Assembly (NCBI RefSeq): GCF_024521635.1
Contig: NW_026250423.1
Location: 310,001 to 374,000 of the forward strand
Reading direction: 5' to 3'
From: Tricharina praecox
Taxonomy: Eukaryota
DNA: 64,000 bases
The translations under genes were made by a program, and so were the position numbers. Positions 43,867 to 46,847 of the stretch are shown here, piece after piece (the stretch's first letter is position 1; every line of letters begins with the position of its first letter). The notes beneath the pieces are model-generated. The model was not told the origin of the DNA and did not search any database. It saw only the letters and a program-made list of their open reading frames with translations.

Positions 43867-44517
43867 CACGGGAATCTCTACTGGTTTCACATTGAGAGAT
43901 GTCAAATGACCTTGCTTAGTATTTGCTGACGTAAATCCGGAAAATTATTCCTTCGATGTGCTGATGAACCGAGGAGCTTTGGCCGTTGAAAACCGCCGGT
44001 TCCAGATCGTTCCACGGGTTACAAAGTAGGCAACTTCTGATTGCATGCTTGTGGATGAAAAGCCTTTGAACACCACAGCGTGATTCAAGTCGGTGCTGAG
44101 ATGTGAGGTTCTTTGTCTTCGTTCATTATTGGTTTCTTATAACCTATCTAGCTCATGGCAATGTATGTACACTGTTCCCACCGTCCAGTTTTCCCTTGTC
44201 TACGTCAGTGAGCCGGCTTGCTGCAACGCCATCGTCTGTGATGTGAAGTTGAATTATCGTGAGCATTGATGGGTGGCCACCGAGTGACATCCCGTGCTTG
44301 GACGCACAGCCCACGAGCATGAGCTCTTGTGGCATGTGCGCGTCAAAATAATCATGCCATCCGGCCGGTGCTTAGCCAATTATGTCTGTCTTATCGTTTA
44401 TCGAGTCTTTCCGCTCACAGGCAAAGCCAAAAGAACAACCCTAATCCTGATTCCAGGCAGCAGTAGCGCCGGAGATAATCGGATAAAATATCATGCCGAG
44501 ACCTCGTCCTCATCATG

Positions 44518-44632
44518 ATGAGTCGACATCGCCTCTGCACGTGATCGACACTCTTGCCAGCCAATCAAAGGCCCCGGATGACTCCACTTTCTGCAGGCGC
44601 AGCAATGCTGTGGAACGTAAGCTGATGACTTA
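44518..44632 (+). promoter_or_regulatory. Cluster of AP-1/GCRE-like sites plus an E-box and CCAAT upstream of the bZIP gene
   Basis: ATGAGTCG at 44518, CACGTG at 44538, CCAAT at 44561, ATGACTCC at 44578 and ATGACTTA at 44625. Confidence 0.45.
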
Positions 44633-44899
44633 GCCTCGCTCCCGCAGTCAAGGCTTGTTCACTCACAATGATATTTAGTAGACTCACTCCCGCTCTTCAC
44701 ATCCCTCTTGCCCCCCCTCCAGAACAACACCATCACTAGACGGCCATCCACGTTGTCTTTCTCCCCCCTTCCCACGCCCCTGTGCGTCTGCTTTTCTCGC
44801 CACCTCCTAACGACCCGCCAACTGCGGAGGTCATAAACTCCGCACCCCGAGCACCCCCGTGTCTTCATCGCCTTCAGCGATCCCTAATCAATTTGCGAA

Positions 44900-45940
44900 A
44901 TGTCTCACTGTTAGTCCCCAACTTCTCGCCCATCCTCCTCCTCTCACTCATATTGACCCCGTCGTCTGTAGTCAACTCGGCTGCTCGGACCAGCAAACTC
45001 AACGCGGGCGGCATTCCAAGCGAACCCAAGTACTCAACCGTGGACTAATCATCACGACGAGCACTTTCCCCTCGACTTGGACCTCGACCTCGGCACTGAT
45101 CTAAACTTCGATCTCGACTTCGGACAACAAGAACTCGACGGATTCCATCACGATAACACTTTCTTTGGCTTTGACTTCCCGCTTTTCGACCGCGTAAACA
45201 ACGACACGGTTGACCAGCTTCTCGAGAAGTCAATTTTTGACGACCCGGCCCTCAGTAGCATCATCACCCCGACTCCGACCACCCCCGACATCTCCCTCGA
45301 TTCGTACCTCAACCTCCCCCCCACCACCGCCACCGCAGCAGACGACTTCCTCGAAGCAACGCTGTCCTCCACCATAACAATCCCCCCCCACACCACCACG
45401 CGGCAGCAAAAGACTCCTTCCCCGGACGCCTCCCAGGGCTCCGAGGAGTCTACTCCTACCGCGACCACACCCTCCCGCAATGTCCTAACACCACCGCCCG
45501 CCTTCGCGGACCAGCTGACCCCACCGCGCTCCACCGCCACTTCGACCTCCACCTTCCGACTACCCACGCCGCCCTCCACGCTCCCTACGCTCCCCCTCTT
45601 CCCGCCGCTCGGGCACTCCCTGCCCACCTCCACGCTCTCCCCCGAGTCCTCCACCTCTTCGCGCAAGCGCAGAGCCAGCTTCACCCCGCTCTCGCCGCGC
45701 CCAAAGGAGCTGGTCGAAACAGACATCCACAGCTCCGACGACGACAAGGACAAGCGCCGCAAGCGGAATACTGCCGCCGCGAGACGGTACAGGCAGAAGA
45801 AGCAGGACCGCATGAAGGAGCTGGAGGACGAGCTCAATGAGGTCCGTAAACGGGAGGAGATCTGGAAGGCCGAGGCTCTCAAGCAGCGCATGGAGGCTGA
45901 GAAGTGGTTCGAAATGTGGACGCTTTGTAAGGGGAAGTAA
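44900..45940 (+). CDS. bZIP transcription factor, JlbA/IDI-4-like (Gcn4/ATF4-related). The start is ambiguous: AUG 44900 with intron 44910-44993 (318 aa), or a non-AUG start such as TTG 45077.
   Basis: C-terminal basic region KRRKRNTAAARRYRQKKQDRMKELEDEL plus zipper, and an acidic Phe-rich activation-like N-terminus. The frame is open from 44972, but its first in-frame ATG is at 45812. Confidence 0.82.
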
Positions 45941-46847
45941 TTGTAAACTGGTGGCGAATAGGATGGGTTGCGGTAGCGGATTGCGGTAGTGGATTGGTGT
46001 TTTCTTTTTCACTCTTGTTTTTGTCTTCTGATGCTTCTTTATTTCCTTGACGTTTGAAATCATAAAATGATACCTAGCAAGAGGCTTGCTACTTATTCTT
46101 GAACTCTTCTTTGTCTAGGTGCGTCTGTATGTACATGATAGCTCTGCCGCCTATGCATACCTCCACCCTCAAGAATCGCGAGTTGTGACCCCGGATCCCT
46201 CCTCACTATCTGACACCTGCAGCCCTATGTGCCAGCCCTGATGCCCATCTCCGCCAGAACCGCTAATCACCATCACGACCAACCAACCACCCAAGCACAG
46301 CAATCCCCCCCTCCAAGTGCCCACTTCACACCATCGTCCATAACCCATAAAACATCGTCCCATTCAATTTCCACCATGACCTCCGGGCTTAGCATAAGTA
46401 GAGTATCATACAATACATAACATACATACAAAAAGACACATCAGCGTACATACATGTATAGAGTAGAACAAAACAAAGAGACAGCCTATCCTCCCCACCC
46501 AGTGACCCATCTCACCAAGCGTTTTTGCCATATCGATCATCCCCCATTCCTTTTCCATCCCAGCCCTTAGCCAACAGCCAGCAGCCAACAGTAAGTAGTC
46601 CCTAAAAGTCAAGTGGGTAAGAAGTAAAGAAGTAAAGTTCATCCCGGCACCTTGAATGAAGAGAAGAGAAGAGAAGGAAAGAAACATGATCGATTTACAT
46701 GTTGAAGTAAACTCGGGGAAAAAATGGAAAAGAGGAAAAGAGGAGAAAAAACATCATTCACAGCTACCCTATCCGCCCGCCATTCAATTCAAATCAATTC
46801 ATACTTACTTGACTCATCATCCACATCATCGCATTGCATTTCGACCA

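What the first reader, a model, noticed from the sequence alone, without database searches (positions are those of the whole stretch)
44900..45940. bZIP gene with no AUG in its main ORF: one AUG and one intron give three possible outputs
Seen: the bZIP frame is open from 44972 to 45940, yet its first in-frame ATG is at 45812, after the basic region. There is no ATG in any frame from 44903 to 45479. The only nearby AUG (44900, good context GAAATGT) is followed by a 5' splice site GTTAGT (44910), a pyrimidine tract, a branch-like ATTGAC (44952) and two acceptors. Outcome 1, intron retained: ATG TCT CAC TGT TAG, a 4-codon uORF (MSHC*). Outcome 2, first acceptor TAG (44969-71, at the normal branch distance): an out-of-frame 28-aa uORF MSHFNSAARTSKLNAGGIPSEPKYSTVD* ending at 45048. 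This overlaps in-frame near-cognate CTG 44981 and ACG 45002 and stops 28 nt before a TTG in good context (GACTTGG, 45077). Outcome 3, distal acceptor CAG (44991-93): the AUG is in frame and gives a 318-aa factor. Known: Gcn4/CPC-1/ATF4 are uORF-controlled, and Podospora IDI-4 has, as I recall, been proposed to start at CUG. Inference: output is gated by alternative 3' splice-site choice and/or non-AUG reinitiation. A +1 frameshift at GAC TAA into the bZIP frame is also formally possible.
Basis: partly seen in the sequence, partly recalled or inferred. Interest (0 to 1): 0.82.

Follow-up and report, generated by a model that had tools for sequence, protein, structure and literature searches.

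The report
AUG-less fungal bZIP gene, GUG start
This fungal stress-type transcription factor gene has no usable AUG and most likely starts translation at a conserved GUG just upstream of an out-of-frame AUG; its relatives IDI-4 and ZIP-1 are already thought to start at non-AUG codons, and genome annotators keep mis-modelling the gene.

Summary
The splicing-switch interpretation is not supported.

- **Splicing.** RNA contigs from 4 public runs show one junction only, 44909^44972, the proximal acceptor. This leaves the sole leader AUG (44900) out of frame, heading a 28-codon overlapping ORF.
- **Distal acceptor.** The in-frame distal CAG has a counterpart in one of three orthologous lineages.
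- **What is conserved.** In five sequences from about three lineages:
  - a hairpin (44823-44844);
  - 13-16 nt later, an in-frame GTG (44859; CTG in a distant relative);
  - 17 codons with a protein-coding substitution pattern and indels in multiples of three;
  - the out-of-frame ATG;
  - a fixed TAA stop (45046-48).
- **Best reading.** A 339-codon bZIP protein starts at GUG 44859. Ribosomes that scan past the GUG are captured by the AUG ORF.
- **Family.** The bZIP domain matches Podospora IDI-4, for which a CUG start has been proposed. Neurospora ZIP-1 is its named homologue. The layout resembles human EIF4G2.
- **Annotation.** The deposited gene model (Tricharina praecox, 296 aa) is contradicted by the RNA.

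Verdict: a new member of a known kind, of moderate interest.

The parts
44670..44681 (+). TATA-like conserved element, putative core promoter
   Evidence: Lies in a block that is invariant in the alignment of W, L001 and L004 apart from one position just 5' of it. RNA contigs begin 20-50 nt downstream, at 44701 in X1 and 44731 in X2. The promoter role is inferred.
44701..44909 (+). Exon 1: 5' leader plus the first 17 codons of the main ORF
   Evidence: RNA contigs cover 44701-44819, 44737-44887 and 44806-44909 without a joint (table 8).
44808..44810 (+). In-frame TAA that closes the main frame upstream
   Evidence: Each orthologue also has an in-frame stop 8-16 codons before the GTG/CTG.
44823..44844 (+). 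Conserved 7-bp RNA hairpin, 14 nt 5' of the GTG
   Evidence: Predicted in all five folds. In the consensus fold, 7 pairs are kept, 2 with compensatory changes and 0 broken in 5 sequences. The spacer to the start codon is 13-16 nt.
44859..44861 (+). GTG, proposed initiation codon of the bZIP protein
   Evidence: GTG in W, L001, L004 and L007; CTG in L005/L006 at the in-frame position assigned by the main-frame translation (the DNA alignment, offsets it by 2 nt). It is the first near-cognate codon after the in-frame stop in W (read). Initiation there is inferred, not shown.
44859..44909 (+). Exon-1 part of the main ORF (17 codons, motif VSSSP.AI.NQ..KC)
   Evidence: 9 of 11 amino-acid columns are invariant in this frame, against 4 of 10 in each other frame. 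Column shuffles reached the observed value 39 times in 20000. The same motif heads the ORFs P0002, P0003, P0005, P0010, P0014 and P0021 and lies inside the longer model P0006.
44900..44902 (+). The only AUG of the leader, out of frame (+2) with the main ORF
   Evidence: An ATG at the same relative frame is present in all 6 loci read.
44910..44971 (+). 62-nt intron (GT..AG), branch-like TTGAC at 44953-57
   Evidence: Joint 44909^44972 in contigs of 4 of 4 runs. At least 31 letters lie on both sides in X1 (59) and X3 (104); only 23 in X2 and 29 in X4 (table 5).
44900..45048 (+). 28-codon overlapping ORF (10 nt in exon 1 plus 44972-45048), stop TAA 45046-48
   Evidence: The orthologous ORFs are 27, 29, 17, 25 and 25 codons with unlike peptides. 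The stop falls in NNT-AAT of the main frame in all loci.
44991..44993 (+). Distal CAG that would put the ATG in frame; no use seen
   Evidence: Sequence. No joined form was seen in contigs, which is not proof of absence. It is not conserved.
44972..45940 (+). Exon-2 part of the main ORF (322 codons plus stop)
   Evidence: Homologues reach E 1e-134 and beyond.
45734..45853 (+). bZIP basic region and start of the leucine zipper
   Evidence: Pfam bZIP_2 at residues 255-294. The profile-profile match to the IDI-4 group covers residues 260-318.
45812..45814 (+). First in-frame ATG, located after the basic region
44605..44616 (+). First exon of the deposited 296-aa model (MLWN); not supported
   Evidence: P0001 starts MLWN followed by HFPLDL. 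That implies an intron 44617-45061. RNA contigs carry 44972-45212 joined to 44909, so that stretch is exon.

Best explanation
This is the IDI-4-like bZIP gene of Tricharina praecox.

**Transcript.** The mRNA starts near 44701-44731 and has one 62-nt intron, 44910-44971.

**Main ORF.** In the spliced mRNA the bZIP reading frame is open from 44811 and contains no AUG before its DNA-binding region. Translation of the 339-codon protein most likely begins at the conserved GUG at 44859, decoded as Met by initiator tRNA. This GUG lies 14 nt after a conserved hairpin.

**Overlapping ORF.** Because GUG is a weak start, most scanning ribosomes should pass it. They then start at the AUG at 44900, which has A at -3. 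They translate a 28-codon out-of-frame ORF across the exon junction and stop at UAA 45046-48.

**Control.** Protein output would therefore be set by start-codon stringency. That means the partition between the GUG and the AUG, and possibly ribosomes at the AUG ORF queuing scanning complexes back over the GUG.

**Shown:** the mRNA structure, the frames and the conservation pattern. **Inferred:** initiation at the GUG, leaky scanning, and any regulation.
For: **1. mRNA structure**
- Joint 44909^44972 is seen in contigs of 4 of 4 runs.
- One soil-metatranscriptome contig (X3, record 17) carries 44806-44909 joined to 44972-45096. That is the GTG, the ATG, the junction and the short-ORF stop on one record.

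**2. No AUG route**
- The leader has a single ATG, in frame +2.
- The first in-frame ATG lies after the basic region.

**3. Conserved start**
- GTG is found in W, L001, L004 and L007. CTG stands at the in-frame position in L005/L006 that the main-frame translation equates with it; the DNA alignment places it 2 nt off.
- In-frame stops lie 8-16 codons upstream in every locus.
- No near-cognate codon lies between the stop and the GTG in W.

**4. Coding signature upstream of the ATG**
- 9 of 11 amino-acid columns are invariant in the main frame, against 4 of 10 in each other frame. Shuffles reached this 39 times in 20000.
- Changes include CCT/CCA/CCC, GCG/GCA, AAT/AAC and a TCT-to-AGT serine switch.
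- The GTG-to-ATG distance is 41, 44, 44, 47 and 47 nt, so all indels are multiples of three. The hairpin-to-GTG spacer is 14, 16, 16, 16 and 13 nt, which is not.

**5. The same N-terminal motif in homologues**
- It heads ORFs translated from short contigs of other species: P0002, P0005, P0014 and P0021 start with V.
- P0003 is written with M where its near-identical DNA locus L001 has GTG.

**6. Main-frame conservation inside the overlap**
- GTP.F..A.TY.NQ.D is shared between genera.
- The short-ORF peptides are unlike each other.

**7. Hairpin**
- 7 pairs, 2 compensatory, 0 broken in 5 sequences.
- Fold z-scores are -3.0, -2.4, -1.1, -3.6 and -2.9.

**8. Precedent**
- IDI-4 is proposed to start at CUG (PMC5487733, passage).
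- N. crassa zip-1 has a 'poor CUG start codon', and its translation depends on eIF2-alpha phosphorylation (PMC10241597, passages).
- NCBI files IDI-4 orthologues as 'partial', beginning with L.
[quoted passage not shown] 2 legend).
Against: - No ribosome profiling or protein N-terminus exists for this organism, so initiation at the GUG is inference.
- The GUG context is poor: C at -3 and U at +4. The consensus it is judged against is recalled, not taken from a call.
- The conservation evidence rests on 5 DNA sequences from about 3 independent lineages. W, L001 and L004 are close relatives. The shuffle test ignores relatedness.
- The L005 CTG is aligned by the protein frame. The MAFFT DNA alignment offsets it by 2 nt.
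- The conserved AUC codon of the 'AI' motif, or other weak near-cognates upstream in L004 and L007, could contribute.
- Contigs cannot exclude a minor distal-acceptor isoform.
- Homology to IDI-4 was shown by profile comparison for the bZIP domain only, 59 columns.
Confidence: 0.68

Rival explanations
1. A minor mRNA spliced at the distal CAG (44909^44994) puts AUG 44900 in frame. This mRNA would be the real source of a 318-aa factor, and splice choice would gate output.
For: The distal CAG exists and gives an intron of 84 nt, divisible by 3. L001 also has an in-frame distal TAG 16 nt after its proximal acceptor. Contigs drop rare variants, so a minor form cannot be excluded.
Against: - The only joined form present in 4 runs is the proximal one.
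- L004 has no second YAG in range, and the L007 distal CAG is in the wrong phase.
- The branch-like A at 44956 is 15 nt from the proximal AG and 37 nt from the distal one.
- This model does not explain the coding signature upstream of the ATG.
Confidence: 0.08
2. The main ORF starts downstream of the AUG, either at near-cognate codons (CTG 44981, ACG 45002, TTG 45077) or by reinitiation after the short ORF.
For: These codons are in frame in the window. Short ORFs can allow reinitiation (general knowledge).
Against: - None of the three is conserved at its position in L001, L004 or L007.
- L007 has no in-frame near-cognate after the short-ORF stop in the 33 codons shown.
- This model leaves the conserved 17 codons upstream unexplained.
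Confidence: 0.08
3. Ribosomes start at AUG 44900 and shift +1 into the bZIP frame at or before the UAA (45046-48), as in antizyme or prfB.
For: - A +1 shift gives the correct frame.
- The stop is UAA followed by U at a fixed main-frame position in all 6 loci.
- Ivanov 2017 mention frameshifting from a uORF AUG as a formal possibility for cpc-1.
Against: - The last sense codons differ: GAC, GUC, GAC, CUU and UGU. There is no conserved shift site.
- The AUG-frame peptides are not conserved.
- The main frame is conserved at protein level upstream of the stop and upstream of the AUG.
Confidence: 0.04
4. The long ORF is not translated. Only a short product from AUG 45812 is made, analogous to the Met175 re-annotation proposed for A. 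nidulans jlbA.
For: Etxebeste 2021 (PMC8396895, passage and Fig. 2G legend) propose a downstream Met for jlbA, after finding that its predicted first intron is absent from RNA-seq.
Against: - AUG 45812 lies after the basic region, so its 43-residue product could not bind DNA.
- About 280 upstream codons are conserved as protein across genera.
Confidence: 0.03

Closest known systems
Podospora anserina IDI-4, Neurospora crassa ZIP-1 (NCU08055) and Aspergillus JlbA bZIP factors
   Same: - The bZIP domain is homologous (hhalign probability 99.2, 42% identity over 59 columns).
- IDI-4 orthologues are among the hits of the family profile (P0050 at 2.5e-11).
- The ORF has no AUG and a non-AUG start is proposed.
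- NCBI files IDI-4 orthologues as 'partial', starting with L.
- The jlbA gene model is also contradicted by RNA-seq.
   Different: - The start here is GUG rather than CUG.
- The N-terminal motif is VSSSP.AI, against LQEW in Sordariales.
- Regions outside the bZIP domain did not align profile to profile.
- I could not check whether IDI-4 also has the hairpin and the out-of-frame AUG, because I had no Sordariales DNA.
- Orthology was not tested by reciprocal search.
Human EIF4G2 (DAP5): exclusive GUG initiation
   Same: The main ORF is started only at a GUG, with a short out-of-frame AUG ORF just downstream (PMC9082881, Fig. 2 legend). GUG use is enhanced by ribosome queuing (PMC6601509, abstract and passages).
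   Different: The protein is unrelated and from another kingdom. Here the AUG ORF spans an intron, and a conserved hairpin lies upstream of the GUG, not downstream.
N. crassa cpc-1 near-cognate N-terminal extensions (Ivanov 2017)
   Same: A fungal bZIP with conserved in-frame coding sequence upstream of any AUG, and conserved near-cognate starts.
   Different: cpc-1 keeps a main AUG and two AUG uORFs that act by reinitiation, and its near-cognate forms are additional isoforms. Here no main AUG exists.
ATF4 / GCN4 delayed-reinitiation control
   Same: A bZIP stress factor with an ATF4-like basic region (the likeness is recalled). A short ORF overlaps the main ORF out of frame, like ATF4 uORF2.
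   Different: There is only one AUG in the leader, no reinitiation-permissive first uORF and no main AUG. The overlapping ORF starts after the main start, not before it.

Membership tests
bZIP transcription factors (Pfam bZIP_2 / bZIP_1) | Basic region followed by a leucine zipper that scores above the curated cut-off | tested here: met
   bZIP_2 scores 33.4 bits against a cut-off of 22.3, at residues 255-294. bZIP_1 scores 21 bits, below its cut-off of 27.6.
IDI-4 / JlbA / ZIP-1 family | bZIP domain specifically similar to named IDI-4 orthologues | tested here: met
   The A2 profile finds P0050 at 2.5e-11. The bZIP domain of P0050 retrieves PODANS_6_10650 and two proteins named 'b-ZIP transcription factor IDI-4'. 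hhalign of A2 against A4 gives probability 99.2.
IDI-4 / JlbA / ZIP-1 family | Similarity outside the bZIP domain, or orthology by reciprocal best hit in the genome | tested here: inconclusive
   The hmmsearch stretch on P0050 spans profile positions 92-322. hhalign aligned only 59 bZIP columns. No genome is held for a reciprocal search.
IDI-4 / JlbA / ZIP-1 family | Induction by starvation, rapamycin or incompatibility, and induction of autophagy | not testable with these tools
   Needs expression and genetic experiments.
Main ORFs initiated only at a non-AUG codon (EIF4G2 type) | No in-frame AUG upstream of the functional domain in the mature mRNA | tested here: met
Main ORFs initiated only at a non-AUG codon (EIF4G2 type) | Conserved in-frame near-cognate codon with a coding signature beginning at it | tested here: met
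   GTG or CTG is present in 6 of 6 loci read. Frame-specific conservation and multiple-of-three indels start at it. The sample is small, about 3 lineages.
Main ORFs initiated only at a non-AUG codon (EIF4G2 type) | Experimental proof of the start (initiation profiling, N-terminal sequencing, mutagenesis) | not testable with these tools
   No such data could be reached.
GCN4 / ATF4 delayed reinitiation | Two or more AUG uORFs upstream of a main AUG | tested here: not met
   The transcribed leader holds one ATG, and the main ORF has no start ATG.
Frame switch by alternative 3' splice sites | Both joined forms present in RNA and both acceptors conserved | tested here: not met
   Only 44909^44972 is seen (contigs cannot show absence). 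The distal in-frame AG is missing in L004 and out of phase in L007.
Programmed +1 frameshifting (antizyme / prfB type) | Conserved shift codon next to a conserved stop, with an upstream frame conserved as protein | tested here: not met
   The UAA-U stop is conserved. The preceding codons (GAC, GUC, GAC, CUU, UGU) and the AUG-frame peptides are not.

The most novel reading that the evidence does not exclude
The hairpin, the GUG/CUG start 13-16 nt after it, the out-of-frame AUG 41-47 nt further on (7 or 10 nt before the exon 1 splice donor) and the fixed UAA stop would together form one ancient start-site selection device. In it, ribosomes engaged on the short AUG ORF, or the refolding hairpin, would hold scanning complexes over the weak start. 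Factor output would then report initiation stringency or eIF2 status. The device would be ancestral to the whole IDI-4/JlbA/ZIP-1 family, which would have lacked an AUG since before the Pezizomycetes split from the other Pezizomycotina. A lead in that direction is that the Sordariales proteins begin L-Q-E-W. This could hide an out-of-frame ATG in GAA-TGG, but I could not see that DNA.
Probability: 0.25. Interest if true: 0.68.

Novelty: new member of a known kind. Interest (0 to 1): 0.5.

Why it matters
- **Annotation.** It gives a concrete, testable gene structure for a transcription factor that every annotation pipeline gets wrong. The homologues' models all start differently:
  - Tricharina: MLWN plus a 445-nt false intron;
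  - Sphaerosporella: a long upstream extension;
  - two Pyronema strains: two different starts;
  - Sordariales: filed as 'partial'.
- **Evolution.** If the IDI-4 link holds, translation of this stress factor family from non-AUG codons would reach an early-branching class of filamentous ascomycetes. That would argue the weak start is a selected regulatory feature rather than an oddity of Podospora and Neurospora.
- **Experiment.** The conserved hairpin / near-cognate start / out-of-frame AUG arrangement is a compact natural test case for leaky scanning and ribosome queuing.

Tried and rejected
**RNA contigs**
- No contig covers 44300-44634, and no 44909^44994 joint was listed in any of the 4 runs. 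These are contigs, so neither point is evidence of absence.
- X2 and X4 bridge the joint with only 23 and 29 letters on the shorter side. That is below the 31 asked for, so only X1 (59) and X3 (104) are firm.
- The intron bin has some depth, so intron-bearing contigs exist. Contig depth cannot quantify retention.

**Searches that gave nothing useful**
- The window's own genome is not held, so there was no paralogue or reciprocal search.
- Papers not held: Dementhon 2004, Dementhon & Saupe 2005 and Wei 2013. The CUG proposal is therefore cited second-hand.
- Earlier-findings look-ups returned nothing.
- The protein atlas gave only generic bZIP clusters.
- The cluster look-up named 3 of 10 proteins, and none as IDI-4.

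**Ideas considered and dropped**
- *Conserved-peptide short ORF.* The C-terminal PKYS.V motif is shared by W, L001 and L004 only. L007 and L005 have unlike peptides.
- *The hairpin as a DNA site for a zinc-cluster factor (CGG..CCG).* The loop length varies, L005 keeps the pairing with a different sequence, and the element is transcribed.
- *A second small hairpin 9 nt after the GTG.* It is predicted in W, L001 and L007 but not in L004 or L005. Not pursued.
- *ATG avoidance in all frames as a sign of long-range scanning.* The signal is weak. W and L001 have 1 ATG against means of 5.5 and 6.2, and L005/L006 have 3 against 6.8. My count failed for L004 and L007, which carry a second intron.

**Other**
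- The script crashed and was corrected.
- The 395 pattern matches in metagenome contigs gave only 12 loci. L002/L003 duplicate L001, L008/L009 duplicate L007, and L010-L012 were not examined.
Full report
**1. Checking the observation**

- The bZIP frame is open from 44972 to 45940, 322 codons. It carries Pfam bZIP_2 at residues 255-294 (33.4 bits against a cut-off of 22.3).
- Plus-strand ATGs near the gene are at 44668, 44900, 45480 (another frame) and 45812. The last is the first in-frame ATG.
- 45812 encodes residue 281, directly after the basic-region motif RYRQKKQDR.
- No ATG occurs in any frame from 44903 to 45479, against about 4.4 expected from composition. Over the 813 nt before the basic region there is 1 ATG against a shuffled mean of 5.5, and 0.029 of shuffles gave one or none. 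This is suggestive, not compelling.
- The donor GTTAGT (44910), the branch-like TTGAC (44953-57), the acceptors TAG (44969-71) and CAG (44991-93), and the three predicted outcomes are all as stated.

**2. What the RNA shows**

Four public runs hold the stretch. I laid their contigs on 44300-46300.
- The single joint listed, in all 4 runs, is 44909^44972, which skips 62 nt with GT..AG ends. This is the proximal acceptor.
- Two runs bridge it firmly: X1 with 59 letters on the shorter side and X3 with 104. Two bridge it weakly: X2 with 23 and X4 with 29.
- One X3 contig carries 44806-44909 joined to 44972-45096. That places the GTG described below, the ATG, the junction and the short-ORF stop on one record.
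- Contigs run without a joint over 44701-44819, 44737-44887 and 44806-44909.
- No base differences and no insertions or deletions against the window were listed, so an assembly error is unlikely.
- These are contigs, so they cannot show that the distal form is absent.

In this mRNA the ATG at 44900 is in frame +2 relative to the bZIP frame and heads the 28-codon ORF ending at 45048.

**3. The deposited gene model is contradicted**

- The window's protein is 100% identical over 93% of its length to a 296-aa hypothetical protein of Tricharina praecox.
- That model starts MLWN and continues HFPLDL. This means ATG 44605-44616 plus an intron 44617-45061 (coordinates).
- The RNA contigs carry 44972-45212 as exon, joined to 44909.
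- Homologues' models start in many unrelated ways, as expected if predictors are forcing an ATG onto a gene that has none.

**4. Orthologous DNA**

A scan of metagenome contigs with the family alignment gave 12 loci. The useful ones are:
- L001, identical to L002 and L003 in the leader, 73% protein identity;
- L004, 80% in the best segment;
- L007, about 99.8% identical to L008 and L009, 55-56%;
- L005 and L006, 40-41%, roughly 1.1-kb intron-less contigs that look like transcripts.

This amounts to about three independent lineages, with W, L001 and L004 close to each other. Searches give the following.
- **(a) The ATG.** Every locus has one ATG at the equivalent place, always in frame +2. The four genomic loci have GAAATGT and L005/L006 have CGATGT/CGATGC. 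It lies 10 nt (W, L001, L004) or 7 nt (L007) before a GT[T/G]AGT donor.
- **(b) The distal acceptor.** A distal acceptor that would put the ATG in frame exists in W and L001. It is absent in L004 and out of phase in L007.
CTG 44981, ACG 45002 and TTG 45077 have no counterpart at the same codon in L001, L004 or L007.
- **(d) The short-ORF peptides.** They are 28, 27, 29, 17, 25 and 25 codons long and unlike each other beyond the close trio.
- **(e) The short-ORF stop.** It is always TAA followed by T, formed by NNT-AAT in the main frame. The codons are ACT, TCT, ACT, TTT and GTT, encoding different residues before an Asn of the conserved N-(H/Q)-(H/Y)-D motif.

**5. A conserved start upstream of the ATG**

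In the spliced mRNA the bZIP frame stays open upstream of the ATG, back to a stop at 44808-10.
- **The codon.** 41 nt before the ATG lies GTG (44859). The same codon is present in L001, L004 and L007. L005/L006 have CTG at the in-frame position that the main-frame translation equates with it; the MAFFT DNA alignment puts it 2 nt off.
- **Upstream stops.** In-frame stops lie 8-16 codons upstream of it in every locus. In W no near-cognate codon lies in between.
- **Coding signature.**
  - Over the first 11 codons after the GTG, 9 of 11 amino-acid columns are invariant among the four alignable loci in this frame. The other two frames give 4 of 10 each.
  - Shuffling alignment columns reached the observed value 39 times in 20000.
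  - The changes are of the coding kind: CCT/CCA/CCC, GCG/GCA, AAT/AAC and a TCT-to-AGT serine switch.
- **Indels.** The GTG/CTG-to-ATG distance is 41, 44, 44, 47 and 47 nt, so indels are multiples of three. The spacer before the GTG is 14, 16, 16, 16 and 13 nt, which is not.
- **Homologous ORFs.**
  - The motif (start)-SSSP.AI.NQ...C heads ORFs translated from short contigs of other species.
  - P0002, P0005, P0014 and P0021 begin with V.
  - P0003 is written with M, although its near-identical DNA locus has GTG.
  - P0010, P0016 and P0027 also begin with M; their codons are not known.
- **The residue before the invariant Cys.** It is K, R, Q, E, P, L or S. All of these can be encoded NNA, as a conserved overlapping ATG requires. 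I saw DNA for only 6 loci, so this is compatible rather than shown.
- **Inside the overlap.** The main frame is conserved between genera (GTP.F..A.TY.NQ.D). This argues that it is translated there.

These tests use few and related sequences. They support a start at the GTG but do not prove it.

**6. The hairpin**

- A 7-bp stem (44823-44844) is predicted in all five leaders. The z-scores are -3.0, -2.4, -1.1, -3.6 and -2.9.
- In the consensus fold all 7 pairs are kept in 5 of 5 sequences. Two pairs change on both sides. L005 keeps the stem with a largely different sequence.
- It ends 13-16 nt before the start codon. That is upstream of the start, unlike the classical downstream hairpin that aids weak starts (mentioned in PMC6601509).
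- Its function is unknown. A pawl behind the scanning complex, or a protein-binding site, are guesses.

**7. Mechanism proposed**

- **Shown:** the mRNA structure, the out-of-frame AUG, the lack of any in-frame AUG before the DNA-binding region, and the conservation pattern.
- **Inferred:**
  - The 339-codon protein starts at GUG 44859.
  - Most ribosomes scan past it. Its context has C at -3 and U at +4, which is poor by a consensus I recall.
  - They start at AUG 44900, which has A at -3, and translate the short ORF.
  - Output depends on start-codon stringency.
  - Ribosomes on the short ORF may queue scanning complexes and so favour the GUG, as proposed for weak starts in general (PMC6601509, abstract and passages; PMC9082881, passage).
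- **Homologue behaviour:** for the N. crassa homologue, translation depends on the eIF2-alpha kinase CPC-3, and the authors refer to its 'poor CUG start codon' (PMC10241597, passages).

**8. Comparison with what is known**

- **Profile search.** The family profile found 528 proteins at E up to 0.001, 43 at up to 1e-10 and 17 at up to 1e-30. The hits beyond the Pezizomycete family include P0050 (Chaetomium, 2.5e-11).
- **Link to IDI-4.**
  - The bZIP domain of P0050 retrieves PODANS_6_10650 ('partial') of Podospora anserina. It also retrieves two Triangularia proteins named 'b-ZIP transcription factor IDI-4, partial'.
  - All three begin with L.
  - The profile-profile comparison gives probability 99.2, but over only 59 bZIP columns.
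  - The gene is therefore IDI-4-like in its bZIP domain. Orthology is likely, since Fedorova 2005 list one IDI-4/JlbA per Aspergillus and Sordariomycete genome (PMC1325252, Table 2 passage). It is untested here because no genome is held.
- **Non-AUG precedent.** That IDI-4 is proposed to start at CUG comes from Ivanov 2017. I could not read the original paper.
[quoted passage not shown] In Tricharina that way out is closed, because the first in-frame AUG lies after the basic region.
- **Nearest layout.** Architecturally the nearest described case is human EIF4G2. It has exclusive GUG initiation with a short out-of-frame AUG ORF just downstream (PMC9082881, Fig. 2 legend).
- **Not a GCN4/ATF4-type leader.** There is one AUG only and no main AUG.

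**9. Verdict**

- This is a new member of a known kind. It is an IDI-4-like bZIP translated without an AUG, now seen in Pezizomycetes with GUG.
- The conserved hairpin / weak start / out-of-frame AUG / fixed stop arrangement is, as far as my four literature searches show, not described for this family. Those searches cover open-access text only, and supplements were not consulted.
- Interest is moderate. The finding fits existing ideas, corrects an annotation, and offers a clean natural system for studying weak-start selection.

Noticed in passing
window 44506-44530: A 21-nt promoter element is invariant in W, L001 and L004 and duplicated in L004. It contains a perfect 14-nt palindrome (CTCATCATGATGAG), about 170-200 nt upstream of where RNA contigs begin. 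It may be a dimeric transcription-factor site, perhaps for a bZIP factor or for autoregulation. A CACGTG and a CCAAT motif follow in W and L004.
   Followed up: partly
window 45480-45488: The only ATG between 44903 and 45811 opens a two-codon ORF (ATG TCC TAA). L001 has an ATG at the same offset and frame.
   Followed up: no
homologous proteins P0002-P0033: 17 of the 24 homologues examined have no internal Met in the 130-320 residues before the basic region. Part of this may be due to the Ser/Thr/Pro-rich composition.
   Followed up: partly
L004 and L007, downstream of exon 2: In these relatives the main frame is interrupted after 188 and 154 codons. Some homologous models carry odd inserts there. 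This suggests a second intron that the window's gene lacks.
   Followed up: no
window 45590-46300 and beyond: RNA contigs of 3.8 and 4.0 kb in X1 and X2 run from the 3' part of the gene past 46300 (table 8). The 3' end may overlap or abut a neighbouring transcript.
   Followed up: no
window 45322-45330: Several RNA contigs break at the C-run here with poly-C loose ends (table 7). This is probably a sequencing or assembly artefact at a homopolymer.
   Followed up: no
P0199, P0200, P0202 (Sordariales IDI-4): These proteins begin L-Q-E-W. If the Glu codon is GAA, an out-of-frame ATG would lie 6 nt after the start of the CTG codon, echoing the arrangement here. No DNA was available to check.
   Followed up: no
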